Below are positions 3,735-47,326 of a stretch of DNA of 48,622 nt, one piece after another. A program made the translations under genes and the position numbers. The DNA is taken from sequence record PV615260. One strand, 5' to 3'. The notes below the pieces were generated by a model. The model saw only the letters and a program-made list of their open reading frames with translations, did no database searches and was not told the DNA's origin. This DNA comes from Shigella phage vB_Shig_1KOFFS. Each line of letters begins with the position of its first letter. Position 1 is the stretch's first letter.

Positions 3735-4156
3735 GCACATTAAACTTTCAACGAGCGCTGGCCATCGGCTTTATCGTGTGGGCGGCTGCCGTTGTTTCCG
3801 GTTGCGCGTCAAGCGTCCCAATCCTTTCCGATCTGGTTGGTAGCAAGCCGGATATGACGGCGCAAGTAGGCGCGGAGAACGTGAAACAGGCGGTTGGCGT
3901 GACCAACAAAACGGACACGTCGAGCAGGCAGGAGACCACGTTTAAGGAGTCGGCTGTAGGTAAAGTTGACACGTCGAACAAGAAATCCGTAACGACCTCC
4001 AGCATTCACGCCAACCAGATCACGGCGGACAAGATCGAGATCCGTAATGATGAAAGCGGAAGCCTGGTTCCGTGGCTGATTGGTAGCATTGGGGTAGTAA
4101 TGCTGGCTATCGGGGTGTTCGGTATTTGGCGGGAACGAAAAAATAAAGGGGCGTAA
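3731..4156 (+). CDS. Unimolecular spanin (lipoprotein with C-terminal transmembrane domain)
   Basis: Signal peptide with lipobox VVSGC at N-terminus and hydrophobic helix [22 protein letters not shown] at C-terminus, as in T1 gp11. Confidence 0.75.
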
Positions 4157-4168
4157 TGCCCCTTTTTC
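4146..4168. terminator. Bidirectional rho-independent terminator
   Basis: Stem GGGGC/GCCCC with loop gtaat, flanked by an A-run upstream and a T-run downstream; ends the + lysis operon and the - accessory operon. Confidence 0.75.
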
Positions 4169-4690
4169 TATATGTACCGCTTGACGTGCAATAGCGCTAC
4201 TCCATCTTCATCGTTAAGACCATGTTCAACCGTGTTGGTTGCGGCCATTCCTTGATAGAGCAAGATGAGCGCGGCACGCAAGTAATTTTCTGGTGTGATC
4301 TGTTTCACGCAAACAAGCCTGTGAACTTCCGTTATCAGATCTTCCACCTGGTTTCCCGAAAAGCTGTTCATCACTGAGTTGGTCAAGGTGCATCATCTCC
4401 CACATATATCGGTTATTCATCCCTTCGAACGACCGGAAATCAAAGCCTATCTCCCTGTTATCCGGCCCCGTACACCACACAGCGCCGTTTTTTCCGTCAA
4501 GGTATCCATTCGTATAGCTTCGCGCTAAAAACTCCTTAGAGACCATTGAGGCGAACATACGTTGCGACACGTTGGCAGCTTTTGCCAGGCGAGGCGCTTC
4601 GCGGTGCATGTAAACGAACTTCGCAAAATCCTGCCGGGTGAACTCCCGGCGAGATTCGCAGAACTTGTAAATGTCAAGAATGAACATCAA
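4168..4690 (-). CDS. hypothetical protein with apparent frameshift
   Basis: ORF 4226-4690 and ORF 4168-4386 overlap in different frames; protein-like composition switches frame near the A4/T4 run at 4359-4362. Confidence 0.4.
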
Positions 4691-6259
4691 TTACCTCATG
4701 AACGACGGGTTGATAAAGACTTCGGAATCCATCACGCAGATAAAGCCTAATTCCTCCATCTTCGGCAATAAGCGTTCCTTAATCTTTTTGCTCACCCCAG
4801 CCTGGCCTTTGAAGATCTTCAGGTTGCGGCAGGCGTTATAAATGCCCTGGACGGTCATAACACCTTTTGCCTGCTTGCAACGACTGGCGATAACGTCATA
4901 CAGCGCTTTAATTTCCGCGCCCTCACCAGCAAATCCGGAAGAGTCAGCAGATGACAGGTAAGTTTTGCTCAACTCATGGAACATGATGATCGCTTCGTCA
5001 ATGGTTGCCGTGTCGATCTTCTTCGAACGCTTACCGCCGGGTTGCCAGTTCCGGATCGTGTGGATTACCGACGCCAGACGCATAACCTGCTTATCAAACT
5101 TACCCATCGCGCCGCGAAGCATAGTATGCGAATACTTGCCGCCGTCACCTAACTCAGGTTCTAATTCCTGGCGGGCCTTATTCAGTCTCCGCATTGCCGC
5201 GTCAGTAACCTGCAACTTAATGTTCGACTCGCTCATAATGTCATGAATCAGCCGGAAGTAATCCGCCTTCAGTGACTGGTCGATCGGCTCATAGGTCGAA
5301 TTCCCGTTTTCGTCGATGAACACGCGTTCGCCCAAACGTGTTTGCTCACGAACCAAAAGGAAACGCTCCGAGACACCGATCCCGCGAGAACCCGCTTGCA
5401 TGATGGCGTCGATGGTTTCATCCTGGGCAATTACGCAAATGCAGCCCAAAGCAACGAATGACATATTATTGCTAACGTCGGCACGAGCGATCGACACGTG
5501 GCCTTTATCCCATGCTTTGAGCACCAGTTCGCTGTTCGTCTTCTTGCCGCCATCGTTGCCATACGTGATCCCCAAAAGGCTGTTAACCGCAGTTGCCTCA
5601 TCGGAAATAACGGCAAAGTTTCCCTGGCGGTTGTTAATCTTCGCCAGACCTTCCGGGGTGGTATCGGATACCGGGAAAGTTAGGTCACACAATTTTTCAA
5701 GTTTCTCTTCCAGTTCGTCACGATCTTCGAAAAGTTTCACCATATCAGATTGCGACAACTCCCCTTTAAGCGCCTGCTTGTTGGCGGACAACTTCGCCAT
5801 GATTTTCTTACGCTCCTTCTTGCGCGACTCGTTAATGCGCTCGACTTCGGCCACGATCGGATCGATGGCCAGCGAGTTAATGGCAGACTTACCAGCGGAA
5901 GGCGGCTGCGACGTGATAACGTAAAGCGTCGTCGGTTGCTCACTGCCGTGATACTCGACCCAAAAGCGACCCATCATCGCGGCGGATACGGTTCCGAGAA
6001 AGTGCATGTAAGCGGATGATTCCGGGAACTGAACAGATCTGGCGGCATTGAGCGCCAGCTTGCCGACCACATCGTAATCATTGGCGATCGAGATTGTTGG
6101 GTATTTATCCGCGTTTACGTCGATATCTTTGGGCTTTGGCCAGAATGAAACGGAGTCACGATACCCGTTCGCACGAATCGCAACGCGCAGAGGACTGATC
6201 CCCTCCCTTTCTGCGATGGCGATAATATCTTGCGGTGATACGCGGTCATTTAAAAACAT
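4691..6259 (-). CDS. Large P-loop NTPase-like protein of unknown function (522 aa)
   Basis: Walker A-like PPSAGKS and Walker B-like AVISDEAT; RBS CAGGAGCAAGGG before ATG at 6259. Confidence 0.55.
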   Translation of the reverse strand: MFLNDRVSPQDIIAIAEREGISPLRVAIRANGYRDSVSFWPKPKDIDVNADKYPTISIANDYDVVGKLALNAARSVQFPESSAYMHFLGTVSAAMMGRFWVEYHGSEQPTTLYVITSQPPSAGKSAINSLAIDPIVAEVERINESRKKERKKIMAKLSANKQALKGELSQSDMVKLFEDRDELEEKLEKLCDLTFPVSDTTPEGLAKINNRQGNFAVISDEATAVNSLLGITYGNDGGKKTNSELVLKAWDKGHVSIARADVSNNMSFVALGCICVIAQDETIDAIMQAGSRGIGVSERFLLVREQTRLGERVFIDENGNSTYEPIDQSLKADYFRLIHDIMSESNIKLQVTDAAMRRLNKARQELEPELGDGGKYSHTMLRGAMGKFDKQVMRLASVIHTIRNWQPGGKRSKKIDTATIDEAIIMFHELSKTYLSSADSSGFAGEGAEIKALYDVIASRCKQAKGVMTVQGIYNACRNLKIFKGQAGVSKKIKERLLPKMEELGFICVMDSEVFINPSFMR

Positions 6260-6384
6260 GCCCTTGCTCCTGATTGGTTAATCGTTCGGCTAATCATATG
6301 CCGTATTAAATCCGAGATCCAGTGATAATCTAAACACGCTTGAAAAACGCGCTTGGATTATCGGGGCGCACGGCCCCGAACCAG

Positions 6385-6822
6385 TCACAGGTATTTAGCT
6401 TCGAAAGTCGTTCCGTCCGATACACTGAAGCCAACTTCCTCGCGGTACAGCGTCCAGCGGCATCCGTCACGGTCGAAGATGTATCCAGCAACCGCACCGA
6501 GCGCACGACCGCTTTCGACCTGGTAGCGCTTGCCGACGCTGAAGGATTTTTTCATCGGGTTGCTATGGTCAAGGCCGACGCATTTTAGCGTTTTGGTTTT
6601 GAGTTCGATGAACGTCGCAATCGCCGCTCCGCCGTCGCCAGCAATAAACAACTCACCGCTAACGCCTACCGACAAAATAATGCGCTTCTTCTTCAGTTCG
6701 ACGCTGTCATATACCATCATTGACACGTTGCCTTCATCGTCGACGCGGGCGGAATAAAGGTTGTTTTCATTGATGTTAACGGCACGGCTTGACGTGCATT
6801 TAATCTTGATTGACTTCGCCAT
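6385..6822 (-). CDS. hypothetical protein (145 aa)
   Basis: ORF in the leftward operon. Confidence 0.5.
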   Translation of the reverse strand: MAKSIKIKCTSSRAVNINENNLYSARVDDEGNVSMMVYDSVELKKKRIILSVGVSGELFIAGDGGAAIATFIELKTKTLKCVGLDHSNPMKKSFSVGKRYQVESGRALGAVAGYIFDRDGCRWTLYREEVGFSVSDGTTFEAKYL

Positions 6823-7280: not shown

Positions 7281-7970
7281 TTCTAGATAATTCGCCTGGA
7301 ACACGGCGCGGGCAAAACCTCGCGGAGTAATGGAGCGCAGCATTTTAGTCCTTTCTGACCTTCCGCCTAAAAACTTCCAGGCCCAAAAGAAATTCACGCC
7401 TTCCACTCCATCCGGCGGAGGGAGCCGTTTCGGTTCGACAAAACCGTTTCCGTGCCATATGCACGTTTTCTTCGTGTAATTGTCACAGTTGGGCATTTTT
7501 GGATGCCACACAGGTTCGTTTGGAGAAACATAGCCGCCGAAGTCGCGCGGGTGAAAATAGAAGTCAGGCTTTCGCCATAGTGACGACAATTTTCCAACCG
7601 GGTTTTCGACCATCCAGGGGCAACCATACTTATTGCCTAATTGCTCGACCATCTTCGCATCCCCTGCTGCGGATAATACGTCATTATCTTCCCTTACGTG
7701 CTTGATTCCGCTATGCGCTAACAGCGTGCATGACGGGAAGGCAAAAATGAAGTCGGGATCTGGAATGCCGAGAATCGATCGCTTCACGTCAAAATCCTTG
7801 TCGATCCAAATGTTAACATACTGGATATTGGGGTGAACCATTCTAATGCTGTATTCTCCGTGGTCGCCGGAGTCGGCATTGAAACAATACACCTTGCATC
7901 CCTTGATGGCCCACGGCAGGCCCATGATGCCGGAGCCGTCGAACATGCAGTAAATAACCTTGTCTTTCAT
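7278..7970 (-). CDS. Short C5-cytosine methyltransferase-like protein (230 aa)
   Basis: Motif I-like FDGSGIMG, motif IV-like FPSC and motif VI-like MVENPVG in canonical order; too short to hold a normal target recognition domain. Confidence 0.45.
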   Translation of the reverse strand: MKDKVIYCMFDGSGIMGLPWAIKGCKVYCFNADSGDHGEYSIRMVHPNIQYVNIWIDKDFDVKRSILGIPDPDFIFAFPSCTLLAHSGIKHVREDNDVLSAAGDAKMVEQLGNKYGCPWMVENPVGKLSSLWRKPDFYFHPRDFGGYVSPNEPVWHPKMPNCDNYTKKTCIWHGNGFVEPKRLPPPDGVEGVNFFWAWKFLGGRSERTKMLRSITPRGFARAVFQANYLE

Positions 7971-9427: not shown

Positions 9428-9785
9428 AGCTTTAGACCCTTTGGCTCAATTCGTTTCGTTGAAGTCATCATAGCAAAGTCGATCGGGTGGCTTTTGACAA
9501 AAAATGCTATTCCTGCGATTGCTGATTATTCCACCGATTCGGAATAGTGGAATAGATGGTGATTGCACCTGATTCCCTGGTGATTAGTTTTGACGAATCA
9601 TGATTGCTTTTGATTGTTTCATTTTGCGCAATGACTTGGTGGAGTGTTTCATGATTTGCAACGAATTGCATAAATGTATGCACCATGCACGCAATTTGCC
9701 GATCGAAGCTGGCAGAACTGGAGTTGTGTTTCACCAACATTTACGCCGTGTGGGAGTGTGGGGGAGGGATAATCTTACCTAAAAA

Positions 9786-9897
9786 TTGCGCAAAAAGCGA
9801 CCAATATAAGCCCATATATAGATAGTAAGTATATGATAAATAATAATATTATTATTATTACTCTCTATCTTTATATATGTTTGGTAAGATTTCTCAG
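9786..9897. repeat. Inverted repeat copy A (about 110 bp, 47-bp AT-rich core at 9818-9864)
   Basis: Reverse-complement match to 42604-42715; the core atagatagtaagtatatgataaataa(t/c)aatattattattattactct differs at one position. Confidence 0.85.
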
Positions 9898-10014
9898 GGG
9901 AGGTTATGGATTCCTCTTGCGCAAGCCATAATTTTTAGATGTTCCGCCGCGAAAAAATGTATATATGGATATATGGGGGATGACAGCAAATCTTCCCAAA
10001 CACGCGCAAATCCT

Positions 10015-10043
10015 TTGACACCAAGGCTTGCGGCCAGTATTAT
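10015..10043 (+). promoter_or_regulatory. Sigma70 consensus-like promoter for the rightward early operon
   Basis: TTGACA at 10015-10020, 17-bp spacer, TATTAT at 10038-10043, about 50 bp upstream of ATG 10091. Confidence 0.6.
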
Positions 10044-40089: not shown

Positions 40090-40551
40090 TTAGAACGGGA
40101 TATCATCATCGAAATCCATCCCCGTATTCCCTCCGCTGTTTTGCGTCTTAGGCGCTTGTTGCGGCTTGGGTTGTTGAGGCTGCCCCCACCCGGATTGCTG
40201 ATTGCCGCCGTTTTGCGAAGGCTCGCGCTGGCTGAATTCGAGTTGTGGCATAATCATTTCATTGTGGCTGTAAATTGTGCCGTTGTGCTCGCGGTTCACG
40301 ATCTGAAGCGTCCGGCAGGTGACGCTGATCACCTTATCCATTTGCAGCGCTTCGTCGTACCACTTAATCATGTTTTCTTTTGCAAAGAAAACGGCGCGGT
40401 AGTTCGTGTAAATTGTTTCGTCCTCGCCATCACGATTGCGGATCTTCATCCGCTCCGACAGGTCTACGGCGTACATTTTCCACGGCCCGTTATTATTACT
40501 GCCTTCCTTGATGTACGGTTCTTTTCGGATTACACCTGTTACAACATGCAT
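40090..40551 (-). CDS. ssb: Single-stranded DNA-binding protein
   Basis: Gly/Gln-rich linker and acidic C-terminal tail MDFDDDIPF typical of SSB; start probably the second ATG (40551). Confidence 0.85.
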   Translation of the reverse strand: MHVVTGVIRKEPYIKEGSNNNGPWKMYAVDLSERMKIRNRDGEDETIYTNYRAVFFAKENMIKWYDEALQMDKVISVTCRTLQIVNREHNGTIYSHNEMIMPQLEFSQREPSQNGGNQQSGWGQPQQPKPQQAPKTQNSGGNTGMDFDDDIPF

Positions 40552-40587
40552 TGTCATTCCTATGGGGCGGTTTCCCGCCCGGTTAAA

Positions 40588-41244
40588 TTAATTGAAAGAT
40601 GAAATATCTTGTGCTTCTGGTTCAGGTTTTGATTCTACCTTTTCCGGCTCGCGCTTCGCAACCTCTTGCGGTTTACCAGGGTTAAAGCCGTTAGCCGGGG
40701 TGACTTTCAGTTCTGCCTGGCGTTTGGTGATATCGTCTTCAGTCATTTTCCACTCCGCAGGCGTTAACGTTTGTTTCGCCATCTTATAGATCTCACGAAG
40801 CGATTCGAGATCTTCGCACGCGTCAATGCGTTTTTTGAAGTCTTTCGGTGTCATTTTCGTAATTTCTGCATCATCATCCGCCTGCTTGATGCCGAGCGCT
40901 GCGGCTAGTGCATAGCGGCGGGCGTAAGATGTTGTTGAACCGTATGCTTGTTCGACTGTTTTGCTGATCGGCATGTTGTACTGAAACGCCATGAACTCGC
41001 CGCTTTCATGCAAAAACATAGTTTCGAGGTGCATAACCTTTTCGGTGCTGGTATCCATCATGGATTGAATGACCATAATTTTATTCTTCTCCAGCGCCGG
41101 GGAAATAGCGTCGAGGATATCCCCAAGATTCGCATAGGTGTTCCCAAGATGGTTGTTCTTCCCGCTTTTCTTCGCGGCCACGAAGCCAGATTTTGCCTTG
41201 ATTAATGCGGCTGCGATGGTGGTAAATTTTTCAGATGTACGCAT
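40588..41244 (-). CDS. erf: Erf-family single-strand annealing protein
   Basis: Segment YGSTTSYARRYALAAALGI typical of Erf recombinases; sits between exonuclease and SSB. Confidence 0.65.
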   Translation of the reverse strand: MRTSEKFTTIAAALIKAKSGFVAAKKSGKNNHLGNTYANLGDILDAISPALEKNKIMVIQSMMDTSTEKVMHLETMFLHESGEFMAFQYNMPISKTVEQAYGSTTSYARRYALAAALGIKQADDDAEITKMTPKDFKKRIDACEDLESLREIYKMAKQTLTPAEWKMTEDDITKRQAELKVTPANGFNPGKPQEVAKREPEKVESKPEPEAQDISSFN

Positions 41245-41303: not shown

Positions 41304-42350
41304 TTAGCTATTTGTGCCGTATACGTCCGGGAACATGTATTTCACAAACTGCGGAGTAGGCAAAACGACTTCCGCCGCGTTTGACTCATATGATGGCCAT
41401 GAATCGTGCTTCACGCATTCCGCATACTGATGAATCACGCTTTGATACTGCTTGCGACCGATCTCGATCTGCTTGCTGGTCAGGGTGAACGCCAGCGGAG
41501 CAAACGGTGATTTTTTCTCCTGCGTTAGCAGTCTGACAACTACCGGGCGTTTTTCGTTGTAGGTCTTCACGAACAGATCGCGCTGCAATGCCATCTTGAG
41601 ATAGTAGCCCAAATTGAAGGCGAGTCGCCCGAAATCGTCCGGCTTGGAAGATTGCGTGGTTTTGTAGTCGGTAATCACCACGACCTCGAAAACCTCATCC
41701 GGGTTGAACCCCCACTCCTTGATGAGTTCGGGATCGGAAACAACGTCAACATGATCGAGTCGAACCTTAACCTTGACGCCGAAGATCTCACCGAAGATTG
41801 ACAATTCACGCTGTGCGGTAGGCGATTCGATACATGCGGCGTGTCGCGGGTTAGCCAGCATCACGCTGCGCATTTGAACAACGGCATCGAAATCAACATC
41901 CTTAACCAGCTTGCGCCCGGAGTTCATCGCGGCGCTTTCGTCGCACAGTTCAATCGCCCACCAAACATTTACGTCAATCCCGGCGCGATATGCCATTTCC
42001 AGAAGTTCCGGGTAATCCTTGTTGGACGTCCCAATCAGGCCACACGCTTTCAGCTTCGCAGACAATGCCGACTTCGACGTAATCAGATCTTTAACCTCGC
42101 CAGGAGAAGTCGCCCGCAGATACTCGCCATTAAATTTTGCCGTCTCAAGCATACAGGTATGCGAACAGGTTCCGAACGCCAGCGCGGCGGTTTCCTCACG
42201 CACCTTGTATTTCCAGTGCGCCGGGGATGTTGCGTAAATCTCGCCGAGGCTTGAGCCGCTAACGTACTCCGCGCACCAGGAATCAGGATCGTGATATTGC
42301 TCGTTAGTCAATTCACTGCTTGTGTATGCCCTGAAAATTGCTTCAGCCAT
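41304..42350 (-). CDS. Recombination exonuclease (PD-(D/E)xK family)
   Basis: 348-aa ORF upstream of erf and ssb; D..E.K-like segment VVITDYKTTQ; position in recombination module. Confidence 0.55.
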   Translation of the reverse strand: MAEAIFRAYTSSELTNEQYHDPDSWCAEYVSGSSLGEIYATSPAHWKYKVREETAALAFGTCSHTCMLETAKFNGEYLRATSPGEVKDLITSKSALSAKLKACGLIGTSNKDYPELLEMAYRAGIDVNVWWAIELCDESAAMNSGRKLVKDVDFDAVVQMRSVMLANPRHAACIESPTAQRELSIFGEIFGVKVKVRLDHVDVVSDPELIKEWGFNPDEVFEVVVITDYKTTQSSKPDDFGRLAFNLGYYLKMALQRDLFVKTYNEKRPVVVRLLTQEKKSPFAPLAFTLTSKQIEIGRKQYQSVIHQYAECVKHDSWPSYESNAAEVVLPTPQFVKYMFPDVYGTNS

Positions 42351-42383
42351 TGATATTGCTCCATTTGTGGTTTCGTTGCGTTA

Positions 42384-42425
42384 AGTATACGCATGACGAT
42401 TCCCGGCGCAAGTCAAAAAGTGCTA
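42384..42425 (-). promoter_or_regulatory. Promoter-like cassette variant upstream of the exonuclease operon
   Basis: On the - strand: TAGCACTTTTTGACT, 21-bp spacer, TATACT. Confidence 0.4.
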
Positions 42426-42468
42426 TCTGCGGTTGGTCAAAAAATGAGCGAAATTTACGTAAGATTTA

Positions 42469-42484
42469 GTAAGATGCATCTTAC
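42469..42484. promoter_or_regulatory. Perfect 16-bp palindrome GTAAGATGCATCTTAC (operator-like)
   Basis: Exact self-complementary sequence read directly. Confidence 0.7.
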
Positions 42485-42603
42485 GTGGTTTTTTCCATAT
42501 ATTTCATAAAGTTAACGCAAATCGGTAAGATGGTAAGATCCCTATAGGTAAATATCCATGAAAAAACTGGCGCGAAATCCAGCGAAAAAAGACACGTACC
42601 ACG

Positions 42604-42715
42604 GAGAAATCTTACCAAGATAAGTATAGAGAGATAGAGTAATAATAATAATATTGTTATTTATCATATACTTACTATCTATGTATCGCGGTTAATTGGT
42701 TAAATTTTGCGCGAA
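42604..42715. repeat. Inverted repeat copy B (about 110 bp, 47-bp core at 42636-42682)
   Basis: Reverse complement of 9786-9897; core identical apart from one base. Confidence 0.85.
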
Positions 42716-42721
42716 ATTTAC

Positions 42722-42737
42722 GTAAGATTAATCTTAC
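42722..42737. promoter_or_regulatory. Perfect 16-bp palindrome GTAAGATTAATCTTAC (operator-like)
   Basis: Exact self-complementary sequence; shares the GTAAGAT half-site with 42469-42484. Confidence 0.7.
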
Positions 42738-42796
42738 TAAATCTTACCTAAAGTGGTTCGACCAGTTGCAAGCCACTGAATTTCAGGCATAAAAAA

Positions 42797-42825
42797 AGGT
42801 AAGACTGATTTTCTCAATCTTACCT
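42797..42825. promoter_or_regulatory. Inverted repeat AGGTAAGA-N13-TCTTACCT (operator-like)
   Basis: Same GTAAGA half-site in a wider-spaced inverted arrangement. Confidence 0.55.
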
Positions 42826-42845
42826 AAATTCTGGTCAATATTTAA

Positions 42846-43805
42846 TCATAGAAGAGATGATGCCTTGTATAACTTACGCTCAAAGCCGAGCTTGAAGTTG
42901 TCACCGTTCGGAACGATAACCTTTAGATCCCGATCGTCTGCGGCTGCCAGCATATCCCGATCTCCACGACGGCAAACTACACGCATTTCTCGCTTACCTT
43001 CTCCGCCCTTGCCTTTATACCTGTACGCCACGATCTCGACGTTTGAAGGTATGATGCAGGCCCAAACGTCGCACTTGAACGAACTGGCAATATTGAAGTG
43101 CATCGCCTCAATCCAGGATCGAGCAAGGTAAATCGGCCCGTTACCGTCGTCGCTCTGATTGGTCACTATCACCGATCCGAAGGTCAGATCTCCAGCTAAC
43201 ATCTTCTCCCGGCCTTCTTCATCAATGAACAGGATATTGCAATACTCATCATCCAGCCCATCTTCATGCACGAGTTGCATCGGTAGCGCGTGAATTAGCT
43301 CCTGTCTGCCGTTCTCGTGAGTTTTTACGCCAACCTGATATGATTTGATATGCTCATTTTCAATGCCCTCATAGAGCGTTACAGGCGTGCTATCGACGGC
43401 CTCCGTTCTGTTTAAAACTGCCAGCACTCTTTCATGATCTGCCATCTTGCCGTAGTCATACCCGTTATCACGAGCTACCTGCTTGTTTCTCTTGACTACG
43501 TATTCTTGCGGAACCTTGCCGAGATAGCGCCCAAGAATGTTGATGCACTCGCTATACGGCTGGCCGCTTAACTTCATTAACCAGCCGATCCCCTTATCAG
43601 CACCGCAGCCGCCACAGTATGCGCCGCCGTCGCCGCGCGTTTCTAATTTGTCAGTCCAGCGGAATCTGTCTTTGCCGCCGCAGTTCGGGCAGTCCTGATG
43701 CTTGCCGTTGAAGTATCGAGAGTGTATGCCGCAAATGTTCTGCAACGCCTCGCGCCACATGCCAGCCATGTACGGCAAAACCTCTTTTTCATCGTAAAAA
43801 TCCAC
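42846..43805 (-). CDS. DNA primase (zinc-ribbon type)
   Basis: N-terminal zinc-binding motif CPNCGGKDRFRW..CGGCG typical of phage/plasmid primases; GTG start after RBS GGAGGT. Confidence 0.7.
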   Translation of the reverse strand: MDFYDEKEVLPYMAGMWREALQNICGIHSRYFNGKHQDCPNCGGKDRFRWTDKLETRGDGGAYCGGCGADKGIGWLMKLSGQPYSECINILGRYLGKVPQEYVVKRNKQVARDNGYDYGKMADHERVLAVLNRTEAVDSTPVTLYEGIENEHIKSYQVGVKTHENGRQELIHALPMQLVHEDGLDDEYCNILFIDEEGREKMLAGDLTFGSVIVTNQSDDGNGPIYLARSWIEAMHFNIASSFKCDVWACIIPSNVEIVAYRYKGKGGEGKREMRVVCRRGDRDMLAAADDRDLKVIVPNGDNFKLGFERKLYKASSLL

Positions 43806-43883
43806 GTCGTTACCTCCAAATAAAAAACGCCTACACGAGAATGATAACCCGGCAGGCGTTTAGTGTTTAGACAAATTGTGCTA
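43806..43883 (-). promoter_or_regulatory. Conserved promoter-like cassette (- strand) upstream of primase
   Basis: Reverse complement reads TAGCACAATTTGTCTAAAC, then hairpin and TATCAT-like element, then RBS. Confidence 0.45.
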
Positions 43884-44282
43884 TCGGACTACGCGGAGCA
43901 TTTCCCGGCGGTCGCATCGGCGCGTAACTGGCTTGCCGTTGCTGTCAAACCTTAAATCTGGTCGGCAGAATGAGGCGCGGAAACCTTTGCAATTGTTCCG
44001 GCGGTAGCTCTTGTGTACGAGATAAGCGCCATCGGCTGAGATCATGCCTCGCTTGCGCCACTGCTGAACGACCTGGATGCTAACCCCCAACTCTTTTGCC
44101 GTTCCAGCGATGCCACCGAAGGCATCAATAACAAGCTCCATCCGCGCAGTCAACCCGGCGCGAACCTCATCCTTCAGTACGTAGTAACCAGTCGGGCGTT
44201 TGCGCTTCTTCTTGTCCTTTCCGCGAGATGTTCCATTGTTGCCGTTCAAAGTTCGCTTGTCTACCTTTGCCATTTGTTCCAT
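43881..44282 (-). CDS. HTH DNA-binding protein (Cro/YdaS-like), candidate transcription regulator
   Basis: Segment GTAKELGVSIQVVQQWRKRGMIS resembles Cro/YdaS-type helix-turn-helix; basic N-terminus. Confidence 0.55.
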   Translation of the reverse strand: MEQMAKVDKRTLNGNNGTSRGKDKKKRKRPTGYYVLKDEVRAGLTARMELVIDAFGGIAGTAKELGVSIQVVQQWRKRGMISADGAYLVHKSYRRNNCKGFRASFCRPDLRFDSNGKPVTRRCDRREMLRVVR

Positions 44283-44373: not shown

Positions 44374-44886
44374 ATGGCAAGCACAGAAGAAGACGTAGCA
44401 TATTTTAAGCGACTATTTCGTTATGAAGGCGGAACACTGATTCGCAAAGTTACAACCAGTAGTCGTGCATTCGCTGGCGACTCCGTAGGGTGCGAGAACA
44501 ACGCTGGGTATTTACAGGTAAGCGTAAAAAGCAAACCCCTATACGTTCACCGAATCATTTGGGAAATGCATAATGGGCCGATCCCAGAAGGAATGGAGAT
44601 AGATCATATCAATCAGGTCAGAACAGATAACAGAATCGAAAACCTGCGACTGGTAAGCCACAAAGGAAACCTTAAAAACCAATCAATGAACAGTGGCAAT
44701 ACTAGCGGGCAATCTGGCGTAAGCTGGTTTAAGCGAGGCGGGAAGTGGAGGGCAACAATAAAGGTTGACAGAAGGCAAATACACATTGGTTACTTCGCGT
44801 CGTTTGATTCGGCAGTTGCCGCACGAAAAGCAGCAGAAAAACAATACGGTTTTCATGATAACCACGGAGCAGAGAAAAAGAAATGA
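44374..44886 (+). CDS. HNH homing endonuclease with AP2-type DNA-binding domain
   Basis: HNH motif EIDHINQVRTDNRIENLRLVSHKGN and C-terminal AP2-like SGVSWFKRGGKWRATIKVDRRQIHIGYF. Confidence 0.75.
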   Translation: MASTEEDVAYFKRLFRYEGGTLIRKVTTSSRAFAGDSVGCENNAGYLQVSVKSKPLYVHRIIWEMHNGPIPEGMEIDHINQVRTDNRIENLRLVSHKGNLKNQSMNSGNTSGQSGVSWFKRGGKWRATIKVDRRQIHIGYFASFDSAVAARKAAEKQYGFHDNHGAEKKK

Positions 44887-46922
44887 GCTTATCGATTGAG
44901 CAACAAATAGATCTATACGCAGACAAAATACCGGCAATCCAAAAGAGATTTACCGTTGGAAATATCGTTCCGTATCCATATCAGGCTGTGGCTTATATTG
45001 AGACCGCCAAAAGAATAGCAAACTACACCGCACCGTTTTACATTAAGGCTTCGGTTTCCGCCGGGAAAACCATCATGATCGCCATGCTCGCGGCGCAGTG
45101 CAAAGCAATGAACTTACCCATGATGGTTCTAGCTCGCCAGGCTGAGATCGTGAAGCAGGATTCCGAGGAGATCAGTAACCTCGATGTTCCCAACTCCGTT
45201 TATTGCGCCGGGTTAGGAACGAAGGCCGCATACTTCCCGATTGTCGTCGGATCTGAAGGGACGGTGGTTAATGGCCTGTTTAAAATGCTGGGCGACTACG
45301 TGCCTTCAGTTCTGGCCATTGATGAATGCCACCAGGTTGACTGGCAAGATTTGGCGGAAGCGATCGCCAACAATGAATCGTTCGAGTACATGAGCCGACC
45401 GAAGGATAAGCCGTATCGCGTGAACGGGGAACTGGTCGATGCCGACCACCCCTACGACGAAAAATTCGACGACGTGGAATTCGGCGGCGGGCGCACTCAA
45501 TACACCATCGTAATCATTGAGTTAATGCGCCGTTGCCTTCAGAAGACTGGGCGCGAGCTTCGCATTGTTGGCTATACGGGTTCGGAGTTTCGCGGAGTCA
45601 TTCCGATCTTACAGGAAGACAAGAGCCAGCCGGGTTTCTGGCGCGAGCAGATCACCGACATTAACACAAACTATCTTGTCGAGTTCGGATCGGTTGTTCC
45701 CACCATTTTCGGCGATACCGAGGCGGATGGGTTGGGGTATGATCTTTCAGAATTCCACGGCTCCAGTCAGGACGGTACGCAGGATTTTAGCGCGGAAGAC
45801 TTGCGCAAGATGGAGAAGAAAATCCATGAATCCGGCGAAATGACGAAGCTGATTATGCAAAAGGTCGTTGAGCGTGCGAAAACCCGAAACGGTGTTCTGA
45901 TAACTTGCGCTGGACAGCGGCATTGCAAGGAGGCGGCGAGCTATCTACCGCCGGACGCAACATACGCGATCATCACCGAGAAGACCAACTCAAAGAAACG
46001 CGGCGAAATTTTGGATAAGGCGAATCGCGGGGAGATTAAATACATCTTCCAGGTGATGGCCCTAACCACTGGCGTTAACGTTCCGTTTTGGGATTTTTCG
46101 GTGATATTGCGCAAGATTGGATCGCTTACGTTGCTTATTCAGCTTTTGGGGCGCGGTATGCGACTTCTGAAGGACTGGCAAAAACAGCCACCTTACTCGT
46201 GGGTGAAAGAAGATCACCTTGTCTGGGATTTTGCCGGAACAATGGATGACCTGGGCCAGTTGTATTTCGATCCGATTTTGGAGCAGGCGCAATACCAAAG
46301 ACGCAAGAGCAGCAAGAACGGCCCGAAAATTTGCCCGGTATGCAAGGGCGAAAATAGCGAGTACGCCCGCCGATGCATTCATAAGGACAGTAACGGCAAT
46401 CGGTGCGAATACTTCTGGATCTCGCAGCGCTGCGAAGACCAGAAAGACCCACGAACAGGGAAGATTAAAGTAAAAGGGTGTTACGCTGAAAACGATATTG
46501 TTGCTCGCCAGTGCAGATGCTGCGGTGTTCAGCTTAAAGACCCAAATGACAATCTCACCGGGAAGCACTATACGCAAAATGACTGGTATGATGTTGTCGG
46601 GTTCGATATCGGCTTGACTCGCAATCAGTCCGGGATAATCTTCAATTACGTGTTACTGAACCATGACGGCGAGCGATTCACCGCAAGGGAAAAGTTCTTC
46701 CCGGAATCAGAGAATCAGATTTGCGGCAAGTTGTGGCGGCAAAAGGCAGTCTTCCAGCACGTTAGCGACGCGGTAATGCGCGGCAAGTTGGGTGGCATGA
46801 AAAACGCCCGCAAGATCCTTGAGTATGCGGAATACTTCCGCGCTCCGAAGCGTGTAACGCATCGCATCAACGGCAAGAAGGAGGACATTATTTCCCGCAA
46901 AGACTTTGGAGGCGAGGAGTGA
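44883..46922 (+). CDS. SF2 DEAD/DEAH-box helicase
   Basis: Walker A VSAGKT and DEAH-type motif DECHQV; C-terminal Cys clusters (CPVCKG, CRCC). Confidence 0.8.
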   Translation: MSLSIEQQIDLYADKIPAIQKRFTVGNIVPYPYQAVAYIETAKRIANYTAPFYIKASVSAGKTIMIAMLAAQCKAMNLPMMVLARQAEIVKQDSEEISNLDVPNSVYCAGLGTKAAYFPIVVGSEGTVVNGLFKMLGDYVPSVLAIDECHQVDWQDLAEAIANNESFEYMSRPKDKPYRVNGELVDADHPYDEKFDDVEFGGGRTQYTIVIIELMRRCLQKTGRELRIVGYTGSEFRGVIPILQEDKSQPGFWREQITDINTNYLVEFGSVVPTIFGDTEADGLGYDLSEFHGSSQDGTQDFSAEDLRKMEKKIHESGEMTKLIMQKVVERAKTRNGVLITCAGQRHCKEAASYLPPDATYAIITEKTNSKKRGEILDKANRGEIKYIFQVMALTTGVNVPFWDFSVILRKIGSLTLLIQLLGRGMRLLKDWQKQPPYSWVKEDHLVWDFAGTMDDLGQLYFDPILEQAQYQRRKSSKNGPKICPVCKGENSEYARRCIHKDSNGNRCEYFWISQRCEDQKDPRTGKIKVKGCYAENDIVARQCRCCGVQLKDPNDNLTGKHYTQNDWYDVVGFDIGLTRNQSGIIFNYVLLNHDGERFTAREKFFPESENQICGKLWRQKAVFQHVSDAVMRGKLGGMKNARKILEYAEYFRAPKRVTHRINGKKEDIISRKDFGGEE

Positions 46923-47326
46923 TTACAGATAAAGGGGATTACCTCGAATATTACGGCGGGCCTGTAAAGGCTTGCCCGCTTGAGAAAATCGACCAGATGA
47001 ACAGCGTTTCGTGGCTGCGGCATGAATATCCTGATTATCTGTTTTGGCATACGGTTAACGAAGGGAGCAAGCACAAAGCGAGCGCGGTTATCGATCATCA
47101 AATGGGGTTGCTGAAGGGTGTTAGCGACATTCTGATCCTGATTGGGTTCGGTGGCAAATACCCGTTCGCAGCCATTGAGCTAAAGCGCCAGGGTAAGGCG
47201 CAGGCGTCGCCAGTGAGCAAGGAGCAAAGGGAATTCCTTGCTGCCGTCCGGCGTCGCGGCGGATTCGCCGCCGTGGCCTATGGCTTCGAGCAATTCAAGA
47301 TCGCTTTCTGCGATGCCATAAAATAG
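46919..47326 (+). CDS. VRR-NUC domain nuclease
   Basis: PD-(D/E)xK-like segments GVSDILIL and AIELK; GTG start after RBS GAGGAG overlapping helicase stop. Confidence 0.55.
   Translation: MITDKGDYLEYYGGPVKACPLEKIDQMNSVSWLRHEYPDYLFWHTVNEGSKHKASAVIDHQMGLLKGVSDILILIGFGGKYPFAAIELKRQGKAQASPVSKEQREFLAAVRRRGGFAAVAYGFEQFKIAFCDAIK

What the first reader, a model, noticed from the sequence alone, without database searches (positions are those of the whole stretch)
4691..6259. 522-aa P-loop protein of unknown function, the largest non-structural ORF outside the replication module
Walker A-like (PPSAGKS) and Walker B-like (AVISDEAT) motifs sit in the N-terminal half, followed by about 300 aa with nothing I recognise. 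Its position in the accessory operon, away from the helicase and primase, suggests a role other than core replication.
Basis: inference. Interest (0 to 1): 0.5.

Follow-up and report, generated by a model that had tools for sequence, protein, structure and literature searches.

The report
MCM-like DUF3987 replicative helicase, T1-like phage
The 522-residue P-loop protein is the DUF3987 helicase found throughout T1-like phages: a ring-type ATPase motor shaped like the archaeal/eukaryotic MCM helicase, most likely this Klebsiella phage's own replication-fork helicase, so it is an ordinary and already catalogued gene rather than a mystery accessory protein.

Summary
The ORF is real: window 4691-6259, minus strand, 522 aa, with AGGAG 7 nt before the ATG. 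Both motifs are present, QPPSAGKS at aa 118-125 and FAVISDEAT at aa 215-223.

It is not an orphan. It matches Pfam DUF3987 at 133.8 bits against a cut-off of 27, and phrog_2373 ("DNA helicase") end to end at E 1e-246. Identical proteins sit in deposited Webervirus genomes, and homologs occur in 1164 phage records. T1's ortholog is ST9.

K124, E221, R259, G295, R299 and K387 are invariant across 48 homologs of 22-66% identity. Homologs occur fused to DnaG-type zinc ribbons, Prim-Pol and the DnaB N-terminal domain.

In phages with ~36-38% identical copies, the gene sits next to the same primase, SF2 helicase, exonuclease, recombination-protein (ERF or AAA_24) and SSB genes that form this window's replication module. 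The window has no polymerase, and its only other "helicase" is SF2.

Best reading, at 0.7 confidence: it is the phage's hexameric replicative helicase and partner of the stand-alone primase. The family was predicted as such in 2016, and one member was shown to be a helicase in 2025. Interest is low.

The parts
4691..6259 (-). DUF3987 gene (522 aa plus stop): predicted MCM-like (SF6) AAA+ hexameric helicase
6267..6271 (-). Shine-Dalgarno AGGAG, 7 nt upstream of the ATG
   Evidence: Read directly from the sequence.
6074..6259 (-). N-terminal region (aa 1-62): three short helices then a coil; function unknown, possibly partner docking
   Evidence: Secondary structure of the model. W40 is invariant among 37 close homologs. 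The suggested role is inference.
5885..5908 (-). Walker A / P-loop QPPSAGKS (aa 118-125), a deviant form with Q in place of the first G
   Evidence: K124 invariant in 48 diverse homologs; Q118 and P119 nearly invariant. Follows strand 113-117 in the model.
5690..5884 (-). Long charged helical hairpin (aa ~126-190) inserted after the P-loop; helices 124-164 and 170-189
   Evidence: Model secondary structure. 14 K/R and 14 D/E in 65 residues. It produces the spurious coiled-coil hits in PDB sequence searches.
5648..5665 (-). DTTPEG (aa 199-204) at the strand-2/helix-2 junction: candidate pore loop
   Evidence: T201, P202 and E203 invariant in 37 homologs; T201 and E203 at least 90% conserved in 48. 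The pore-loop role is inference from AAA+ topology.
5591..5617 (-). Walker B FAVISDEAT (aa 215-223); catalytic glutamate E221
   Evidence: E221 invariant in 48 homologs. D220 is replaced by A in some members. Strand 215-219 in the model.
5477..5494 (-). SIARAD (aa 256-261) between the two strands of a beta-hairpin (251-257 / 266-278) that precedes strand 4: a pre-sensor-1-type hairpin with invariant R259
   Evidence: Model secondary structure. R259 invariant in 48 homologs. The DNA-contact role is inferred by analogy with the MCM PS1 hairpin.
5414..5437 (-). CVIAQDET (aa 275-282): end of strand 4, sensor-1 position
   Evidence: I277, A278, D280 and E281 invariant in 37 homologs; A278 and Q279 at least 90% conserved in 48. 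Assignment by position is inference.
5354..5377 (-). GVSERFLL (aa 295-302): arginine-finger-like motif just before strand 5, resembling MCM 'SRFD'
   Evidence: G295 and R299 invariant in 48 homologs, E298 nearly so. Strand 300-304 follows. The resemblance to the MCM motif is from my own knowledge, not an alignment.
4937..5284 (-). Helical lid (aa ~326-441), including MLRGAMGKFDK (aa 380-390; nt 5090-5122), the sensor-2 candidate
   Evidence: Helices 328-441 in the model. K387 invariant and G383 nearly invariant in 48 homologs; R382 invariant in 37.
4694..4924 (-). C-terminal winged-helix domain (aa 446-522), net basic
4229..4687 (-). Tightly coupled downstream gene (phrog_2794; ATG 4 nt after the helicase stop): small protein with a winged-helix-like N-terminus, function unknown
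   Evidence: Same family and position as T1 ST10.
6385..6822 (-). Upstream gene of the conserved block (phrog_2684, unknown function)
   Evidence: T1 ST7 belongs to the same family.
4145..4165 (.). Bidirectional terminator-like hairpin that ends the leftward operon and the lysis cassette
42846..43805 (-). Stand-alone primase (T7 gp4/P4 alpha-type zinc ribbon, phrog_510), the presumed partner of the helicase
   Evidence: Pfam Zn_Ribbon_Prim. phrog_510 E 1.5e-104. The same family is adjacent to DUF3987 in L005 and L007.
44883..46922 (+). SF2 helicase (ResIII + Helicase_C), the gene usually called 'the helicase' of T1-like phages; not a ring helicase
   Evidence: Syntenic with DUF3987 in distant phages.
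42430..42830 (.). AT-rich intergenic region with 11 GTAAGA(T) repeats in both orientations: candidate origin or operator cluster. Its link to the helicase is speculative.

Best explanation
The gene encodes the phage's own replicative DNA helicase. It is a DUF3987-family AAA+ ATPase with an MCM-like (superfamily 6) motor and a C-terminal winged helix.

Inferred mechanism:
- It is transcribed early, as part of the leftward operon that starts at the AT-rich divergent promoter region near 9.8-10.0 kb and ends at the terminator at 4145-4165.
- Six subunits form a ring.
- ATP is bound at subunit interfaces by the P-loop (K124/S125) and hydrolysed with E221.
- R299, in GVSERF just before strand 5, acts in trans as the arginine finger, and the lid (R382/K387) acts as sensor 2.
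- The beta-hairpin carrying invariant R259 and the DTTPEG loop line the central channel and pull one DNA strand through it.
- The helicase works with the separately encoded zinc-ribbon primase (42846-43805) and the phage SSB.
- It hands template to the host Pol III, because the phage has no polymerase.

Shown here: family membership, fold, motif conservation, primase and DnaB_N fusions in homologs, and synteny with replication genes.

Inferred, not shown: hexamer formation, unwinding, polarity, primase contact and essentiality.
For: - Family: PF13148 DUF3987 at 133.8 bits against a cut-off of 27, and phrog_2373 full length at E 1e-246.
- Catalytic residues: only six positions are invariant in 48 homologs of 22-66% identity, namely K124, E221, R259, G295, R299 and K387.
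- Fusions in homologs: Zn_ribbon_DnaG+DUF3987, Prim-Pol+DUF3987 and DnaB_N+DUF3987.
- Synteny: L005 has DUF3987 followed immediately by a phrog_510 primase, then SF2 helicase, DUF3799 and AAA_24. L007 has DUF3987, a small gene, a Zn_Ribbon_Prim primase, SF2 helicase, DUF3799, ERF and SSB. L003 has DUF3987, SF2 helicase, DUF3799, AAA_24 and SSB.
- Need: the window has no polymerase and no other ORF of 300 aa or more that could be a ring helicase. The annotated helicase is SF2, and the primase lacks a helicase domain. The TLS paper also states that T1 and TLS lack a polymerase gene.
- Literature: DUF3987 was predicted to be an SF6 replicative helicase with a C-terminal wHTH, and the DUF3987-containing N4 dns protein is essential for replication (PMC4889955). 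A PriCT-DUF3987 protein is an oligomeric ATP/dATP-dependent 5'->3' helicase that binds its primase-polymerase, and Walker A/B mutants are inactive (PMC11724360).
- Conservation: homologs occur in 1164 deposited phage genomes, including T1 ST9.
Against: - No experiment exists on any T1-group member. I found no genetic data linking T1 ST9 to DNA synthesis.
- In this phage the gene is about 9 kb from the primase, among small early genes and a DNA methyltransferase.
- The MCM relationship is visible only at fold level. No Pfam MCM hit was found for any of 48 members at E<=1, and no PDB hit by sequence or profile.
- The MCM N-terminal OB/zinc domain is absent, and apparently so is the helix-2 insert.
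- Polarity is unresolved. The one characterised DUF3987 helicase runs 5'->3', whereas MCM and the staphylococcal AAA+ Rep helicases run 3'->5'.
- Dependence on host DnaB was not excluded.
Confidence: 0.7

Rival explanations
1. Initiator-helicase, an extension of the main reading rather than a strict alternative. The C-terminal winged helix recognises an origin, the protein melts it and loads itself, as SaPI Rep, SCCmec Cch, papillomavirus E1 or P4 alpha do, and then acts as the fork helicase. The candidate site is the AT-rich GTAAGA(T) repeat cluster at 42430-42830 beside the primase gene.
For: - A winged helix at the C-terminus, net basic.
- No recognisable initiator or helicase loader in the annotated relative.
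- Self-loading Rep helicases have this architecture and bind iterons that flank an AT-rich region (PMC9371898).
- 11 of the window's 24 GTAAGA copies lie within 360 bp around a ~77% AT core, against 0.19 expected per 400 bp. The arrangement is conserved in NJS1.
Against: - Exact copies of the repeat also sit in the other early promoter region (9771, 9883). The equivalent T1 region upstream of exoVIII has a different repeat (GTTACA x7). The repeats may therefore be operators for the phage HTH regulator at 43881-44282.
- Winged helices in MCM proteins often bind proteins rather than DNA (my knowledge).
- No binding test was possible.
Confidence: 0.3
2. A recombination or repair motor rather than the fork helicase. 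In this reading it is a ring translocase that migrates branches or processes recombination intermediates for recombination-dependent replication with ExoVIII, Erf and SSB, as MCM8/9, ComM or RuvB do, while host DnaB drives the forks.
For: - MCM8/9 and ComM are among the structural neighbours.
- In distant phages the gene travels with DUF3799 exonuclease, ERF/AAA_24 recombinases and SSB.
Against: - Fusions to primases and to the DnaB N-terminal primase-binding domain point to a primosome role.
- The gene is adjacent to a primase in L005 and L007.
- The SF2 helicase in the same modules is the more usual candidate for fork remodelling or recombination.
- The DUF3987 protein of N4 is described as essential for replication.
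Confidence: 0.12
3. An accessory ATPase unrelated to replication, for example a host-range, host-takeover or anti-defence factor. This is what the first reader inferred from the gene's position among small early genes.
For: - The operon also carries a DNA methyltransferase, a small membrane protein and several proteins of unknown function.
- The gene is separated from the primase/SF2 helicase cluster.
Against: - No PADLOC hit.
- The gene is widespread across Drexlerviridae genera and beyond, in 1164 records, rather than patchy like accessory genes.
- In relatives it sits inside the replication module.
- The catalytic motor residues are invariant.
Confidence: 0.05
4. An AAA+ loader or adaptor that recruits host DnaB to phage DNA, working like DnaC or lambda P, and not itself a helicase.
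For: - It is an AAA+ protein in a phage that relies on host replication enzymes.
Against: - Structural neighbours are MCM motors with a pre-sensor-1-type hairpin. Cdc6/ORC chains appear only through short (~80-residue) winged-helix-length alignments, and no DnaC-type loader is listed among the top 60 hits.
- DnaB_N+DUF3987 fusions imply that DUF3987 takes the place of DnaB's motor domain.
- A family member unwinds DNA by itself.
Confidence: 0.04

Closest known systems
DUF3987 (Pfam PF13148) helicases; characterised example AgaPH, the PriCT-DUF3987 protein of a Seonamhaeicola mobile element (PMC11724360)
   Same: Same Pfam family, matched well above the gathering score. Both have a Walker A with variation, a DE-type Walker B and a small C-terminal domain, and both are associated with a primase. 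AgaPH is an oligomeric ATP/dATP-dependent helicase.
   Different: The window's protein has no PriCT domain. Its partner is a separate DnaG/T7-type zinc-ribbon primase rather than an AEP PrimPol. It is not adjacent to that primase in this genome. No biochemistry exists for it.
Orthologs in T1-like phages: T1 ST9, NJS1 gp62 and an identical protein in Klebsiella phage CBB98
   Same: Identity runs from about 65% (Rtp-type coliphages; T1 ST9 was not aligned separately) to 100% (CBB98). All have the same length, the same position after the lysis cassette and the same flanking families phrog_2684 and phrog_2794. RefSeq and pharokka-style records annotate them as 'DNA helicase'.
   Different: Nothing substantive. 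Depositor annotations are inconsistent: 'hypothetical protein', 'DUF3987 protein', 'helicase'. T1 has an HNH endonuclease gene inserted just upstream.
Archaeal and eukaryotic MCM helicases (SF6; Pfam PF00493)
   Different: Only 10-19% identity and no Pfam MCM hit. The protein lacks the N-terminal OB-fold/zinc domain and has no evident helix-2 insert. It has a roughly 65-residue charged helical hairpin after the P-loop. It is probably a homo-oligomer in a bacterial virus. The one characterised family member has the opposite polarity.
Self-loading AAA+ replication helicases of staphylococcal mobile elements (SCCmec Cch, SaPI Rep proteins)
   Different: They belong to different sequence families (DUF927 or SF3-type). 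They have demonstrated origin binding and 3'->5' polarity. Neither property is known here.
Phage P4 alpha and T7 gp4 primase-helicases
   Same: The window's primase carries the same zinc-ribbon family and matches the N-terminal half of the phrog_510 profile (positions 10-318 of 667). T1's primase is annotated as similar to an 'alpha replication protein' of a prophage. Functionally the pair primase + DUF3987 + winged helix would be a split version of such enzymes (inference).
   Different: The motor here is an MCM-like AAA+ on a separate polypeptide. It is neither the SF3 domain of P4 alpha nor the RecA-type SF4 domain of gp4.

Membership tests
DUF3987 (Pfam PF13148) | Score above the curated gathering threshold over most of the model | tested here: met
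   133.8 bits against a cut-off of 27; aa 79-424 cover model positions 3-348 of 364. All 48 members of alignment A3 also match.
DUF3987 (Pfam PF13148) | Conserved Walker A lysine and Walker B acidic residue, as shown to be required in AgaPH | tested here: met
   K124 and E221 are invariant in 48 homologs. Their requirement for activity is shown only for AgaPH.
DUF3987 (Pfam PF13148) | [quoted passage not shown] | tested here: met
DUF3987 (Pfam PF13148) | Association with a primase, either fused or as a neighbouring gene | tested here: inconclusive
   Not adjacent in this window: the primase is about 9 kb away in the NJS1 gene order. Adjacent in L005 and L007, and fused in P0186 and P0225.
AAA+ ring helicase, superfamily 6 (MCM-like) | AAA+ alpha/beta core plus helical lid, with MCM as the nearest fold | tested here: met
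AAA+ ring helicase, superfamily 6 (MCM-like) | Pre-sensor-1 beta-hairpin and trans-acting arginine finger | tested here: inconclusive
   A hairpin at 251-278 with invariant R259, and GVSER299F before strand 5 with invariant R299, are in the expected places. No residue-level structural alignment or oligomer model was available.
AAA+ ring helicase, superfamily 6 (MCM-like) | Hexamer formation, DNA-stimulated ATPase, unwinding activity | not testable with these tools
   Requires biochemistry or a multimer prediction. Only a monomer could be modelled.
MCM family proper (Pfam PF00493) | Sequence match to the MCM model | tested here: not met
   No MCM hit for any of 48 family members at E<=1. No MCM chain found by phmmer or profile search of the PDB.
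MCM family proper (Pfam PF00493) | N-terminal OB-fold/zinc domain and helix-2 insert hairpin | tested here: not met
DnaB-type SF4 helicase | RecA-fold C-terminal motor and DnaB Pfam domains | tested here: not met
   No DnaB or DnaB_C hit on this protein. Structural neighbours are AAA+ proteins, not RecA-fold helicases.
SF3 helicases (P4 alpha / D5 / E1 type) | SF3 motor, recognised by the corresponding Pfam models and structures | tested here: not met
Terminase / packaging ATPase | Terminase ATPase and nuclease domains, position in the packaging module | tested here: not met
   No terminase families hit. By synteny with NJS1, the phage's own small and large terminase genes lie at about 17.3-19.5 kb.
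Known anti-phage defence or counter-defence ATPases (PADLOC) | Match to a PADLOC model | tested here: not met
   No hits for this protein or three of its neighbours.

The most novel reading that the evidence does not exclude
T1-like phages may run a hybrid replisome. In it, an MCM-fold ring helicase is the only fork helicase and also the origin-recognising initiator, acting through its winged helix on the GTAAGA(T) repeat/AT-rich region beside the primase gene. It would translocate 5'->3' on the lagging strand like DnaB, pair with a bacterial-type zinc-ribbon primase and recruit host Pol III. That would make it an archaeal/eukaryotic-type motor that has taken over the bacterial DnaB role, with reversed polarity, and it would mean the SF2 enzyme long called 'the helicase' of T1 is not the replicative one.
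Probability: 0.2. Interest if true: 0.5.

Novelty: already known. Interest (0 to 1): 0.22.

Why it matters
The practical value is tidying annotation. Hundreds of Webervirus and other T1-like genomes, many of them therapy candidates against Klebsiella, label this gene variously as hypothetical, DUF3987 or helicase. Discussions of the family's replication, such as the 2024 TLS re-annotation, consider only the SF2 enzyme.

Recognising the DUF3987 protein as the likely fork helicase gives a coherent minimal replisome for this polymerase-less family: ring helicase, stand-alone primase, SSB and host Pol III. It also names a conserved candidate drug or defence target.

The wider question is how an MCM-fold motor works with bacterial-type primases, and with which polarity. 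That question is real, but the published DUF3987 work already raises it.

Tried and rejected
- NCBIfam and PADLOC scans gave no hits.
- Sequence (phmmer) and profile (48-sequence HMM) searches of the PDB returned only coiled-coil noise from the helical insert, so no solved relative is detectable by sequence.
- A relaxed Pfam scan of 48 family members, looking for MCM or other AAA+ models, found nothing beyond DUF3987, one DnaB_N fusion and noise. For that reason I could not make a residue-level MCM motif alignment. The motif assignments rest on position in the model plus conservation.
- Literature searches for T1 genetics (DNA-negative amber mutants, host dna gene requirements) and for Webervirus transcriptomes found nothing usable.
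- The escape-mutant study of SECphi phages reports no hits in this gene.
- The 2026 Avs paper concerns RecA-type primase-helicases, not this family.
- I looked for tandem repeats or iterons within or next to the gene and found none. The only strong repeat cluster is 36 kb away, beside the primase gene.
- The promoter and terminator scans of the operon were at chance level overall.
- Rfam found no known RNA family in the window.
- I rejected the packaging ATPase reading because the terminase is present elsewhere. I rejected the DnaB-type and SF3-type readings because the fold and family tests were not met.
Full report
**1. The observation**

Window 4691-6259 holds an uninterrupted 522-codon ORF on the minus strand, with ATG at 6259 and TAA at 4693-4691. 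The plus-strand translation of the same span is full of stops. AGGAG lies 7 nt upstream of the ATG. QPPSAGKS is at aa 118-125 and FAVISDEAT at aa 215-223.

**2. What the window is**

The region is 95-98% identical to hundreds of Klebsiella phages of the genus Webervirus (Drexlerviridae, the T1-like siphoviruses). The protein is 100% identical to one in Klebsiella phage CBB98. Homologs occur in 1164 deposited phage records from Klebsiella, Escherichia, Vibrio, Salmonella, Shigella and other hosts. Depositors label it 'DNA helicase', 'putative helicase', 'DUF3987 protein' or 'hypothetical protein'. The T1 ortholog is ST9.

**3. Family**

The protein matches Pfam DUF3987 (PF13148) at E 1.1e-38 and 133.8 bits against a cut-off of 27, covering aa 79-424. 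It matches phrog_2373 'DNA helicase' end to end at E 1e-246, and its last 70 residues also match phrog_7327. There are no NCBIfam or PADLOC hits. An exhaustive HMMER search of 1.84 billion cluster representatives finds 1800 relatives at E<=1e-3 and 164 at E<=1e-30.

**4. Fold**

An AlphaFold2 model built on 37 homologs is confident, with mean pLDDT 88.9 and pTM 0.86.

- Other AAA+ proteins follow: RavA 11.3, BchI 10.6, the SCCmec helicase Cch 9.2, ComM 9.0 and BrxL 8.5.
- Foldseek against the PDB: all 50 top hits are MCM subunits, at E 7e-6 to 1.4e-3.

By sequence nothing in the PDB is detectable, either with the single protein or with a 48-sequence profile. No member of the family touches the Pfam MCM model at E<=1. 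The protein therefore has an MCM-like fold but is not a member of the MCM family proper.

**5. Anatomy** (model secondary structure, conservation, coordinates)

| Residues | Feature |
|---|---|
| 1-62 | Three short helices, then a coil |
| 64-95 | Two helices |
| 99-117 | Strands leading into the P-loop |
| 118-125 | P-loop (Walker A); K124 invariant |
| 124-189 | Unusual ~65-residue charged helical hairpin |
| 199-204 | Conserved DTTPEG loop at the strand-2/helix-2 junction |
| 215-221 | Walker B strand ending in E221 (invariant); the preceding D220 is A in some members |
| 251-278 | Beta-hairpin carrying invariant R259, running into strand 4 (VIAQDE) |
| 295-300 | GVSERF with invariant G295 and R299, immediately before strand 5. 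This is the position and look of the MCM 'SRFD' arginine finger; that comparison is from my own knowledge, not from an alignment |
| 328-441 | Helical lid, containing LRGxxGK387 |
| 446-516 | Winged helix, net basic |

Across 48 homologs of 22-66% identity only K124, E221, R259, G295, R299 and K387 are invariant. That is the signature of a working ATPase motor, not of a decayed P-loop. The protein lacks the MCM N-terminal OB/zinc domain, and only a single helix lies where the helix-2 insert would be.

**6. Evidence for a replication role**

a. Among the more distant homologs, the DUF3987 module is fused to a DnaG-type CHC2 zinc ribbon (P0186), to a Prim-Pol domain (P0225) and to the DnaB N-terminal domain (P0182).

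b. In phage contigs whose copy is 36-38% identical, the gene lies inside the replication/recombination module:

| Locus | Gene order |
|---|---|
| L005/L006 | DUF3987, then a phrog_510 primase (next gene, 2 nt gap), HNH, SF2 helicase, DUF3799 exonuclease, AAA_24 |
| L007 | DUF3987, small gene, Zn_Ribbon_Prim primase, SF2 helicase, DUF3799, ERF, SSB |
| L003/L004 | DUF3987, SF2 helicase, phrog_824, DUF3799, AAA_24, SSB |

These are the same families that make up this window's replication module:

- primase 42846-43805 (Zn_Ribbon_Prim, phrog_510)
- SF2 helicase 44883-46922 (ResIII + Helicase_C)
- phrog_824 gene 46919-47326
- DUF3799 exonuclease 41304-42350
- ERF 40588-41244
- SSB 40090-40557

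.

c. The window has no polymerase gene, and no other ORF of 300 aa or more could be a ring helicase. The TLS paper likewise notes that T1 and TLS lack a polymerase.

d. Published work:

- Kazlauskas et al. 2016 assigned phage DUF3987 proteins to SF6. They linked one member to MCM at 98% HHsearch probability.
- They also noted the C-terminal wHTH and the primase association, concluded that these proteins act as replicative helicases, and pointed out that the DUF3987-containing N4 dns protein is essential for replication.
- Kazlauskas et al. 2018 listed DUF3987 among helicase-substituting domains fused to AEP primases.
- A 2025 NAR paper showed that a PriCT-DUF3987 protein is an oligomeric, ATP/dATP-dependent 5'->3' helicase that binds its PrimPol, and that it is inactivated by Walker A/B mutations.

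**7. Interpretation**

The most likely function is the phage's hexameric replicative helicase. It would work with the stand-alone primase and SSB and feed host Pol III. Family, fold, motif conservation, fusions and synteny are shown here. Ring formation, unwinding, polarity, primase contact and essentiality are inferred.

Here it lies in an approximately 5.6-kb leftward operon running from an AT-rich divergent promoter region (~9.8-10.0 kb) to a bidirectional terminator at 4145-4165. The operon also carries a DNA methyltransferase and small early genes.

**8. Rivals**

- *Initiator-helicase.* This reading is compatible with the data. A winged helix is present and no initiator or loader is recognisable. 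An iteron-like cluster also exists: 11 GTAAGA(T) copies in both orientations around a ~77% AT core at 42430-42830, next to the primase gene. It is conserved in NJS1.
- *Against that reading.* Copies of the same word sit in the other early promoter region. In T1 the equivalent region, upstream of exoVIII, carries a different repeat. An operator function for the phage HTH regulator is therefore equally possible.
- *Recombination motor, accessory ATPase, or loader of host DnaB.* The primase and DnaB_N fusions, the synteny, the wide distribution of the gene and the MCM-type fold all make these less likely.

**9. Novelty**

This is a known gene of a known family in a well-sampled phage genus. It is already labelled 'DNA helicase' by PHROG-based annotation, it was predicted to be a replicative helicase in 2016, and a family member was biochemically validated in 2025.

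Open questions remain: whether T1-like phages really use it as the fork helicase, its polarity, and whether it recognises an origin. The T1-family literature I could read still discusses only the SF2 enzyme. Interest is therefore low.

Noticed in passing
window 42351-42845 (core 42430-42830): This AT-rich intergenic region lies between the ExoVIII-like gene and the primase gene. It holds 11 copies of GTAAGA(T) in both orientations within 360 bp (0.19 expected per 400 bp; 11 of the window's 24 copies). The copies flank a ~77% AT core. There is also a 34-nt repeat present twice (42433-42466 and 42696-42729). The arrangement is identical in phage NJS1. T1 has a different repeat (GTTACA x7) and an AT peak at the equivalent place upstream of exoVIII (L002 29932-30267). 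It is a candidate replication origin or an operator cluster.
   Followed up: partly
window, 17 sites: + strand 21, 10668, 11235, 11847, 12389, 13511, 14300, 15271, 18438, 22366, 44297, 47325, 48021; - strand 7264, 8252, 9131, 26517: A conserved box, AGCAC(G/T)nnnTTG(C/T)TAAA, occurs 17 times at up to 2 mismatches, against 1.2 expected and a maximum of 5 in shuffles. At least 13 of the sites are co-oriented with local transcription and lie in gaps between early or middle genes. In the four copies aligned, the box is followed by a GC hairpin (GAAA-type loop in two of them) and a TTACCCCATnGAAAC-like motif; three of the four then have an RBS and ATG about 45-55 nt downstream. The spacing does not fit a sigma-70 promoter, and there is no Rfam match. 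It may be a phage-specific promoter or an RNA-processing element.
   Followed up: partly
window 4171-4386 (-) and 4229-4687 (-): A small ORF overlapping the 3' end of the phrog_2794 gene matches phrog_9539 (E 1.4e-14) but is not annotated in NJS1. The last ~37 residues of the phrog_2794 ORF (R/H/C-rich) are absent from homologs in other genera, which stop near residue 116. The annotated 3' end may therefore be read-through over this unannotated small gene.
   Followed up: partly
window 9761-9940: This is the most AT-rich stretch of the window (up to 78% AT), in the divergent region between the leftward early operon and the rightward operon, which has a TTGACA-17-TATTAT promoter at 10015-10043. 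It contains exact GGTAAGATT copies at 9771 (-) and 9883 (+), and TGCGCAA occurs six times between 9624 and 9918.
   Followed up: no
window 6362-6376 (-): A GC hairpin, GGGGCCGTGCGCCCC, sits right after the stop of the phrog_2684 gene and about 100 nt upstream of the helicase ATG. It has no T-run. It may be an RNA stability or attenuation element within the operon.
   Followed up: no
relatives listed (e.g. KP658157.1, MK521904.1, OM687893.1): Several deposited Webervirus genomes label a gene in this ~4.5-kb stretch as 'polyribonucleotide nucleotidyltransferase' or 'phosphoglucomutase/phosphomannomutase'. No such family was found in the window genes scanned, so these look like propagated misannotations.
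   Followed up: no
L003 7262-7576; L007 ~7480-7660; L005 ~6660-6800: In the distant phages the DUF3987 operon also starts at a strongly AT-rich divergent intergenic region (up to 88% AT). In L003 that region carries GGGGTA seven times. An AT-rich repeat-bearing region at the head of the helicase operon may be a general feature.
   Followed up: no
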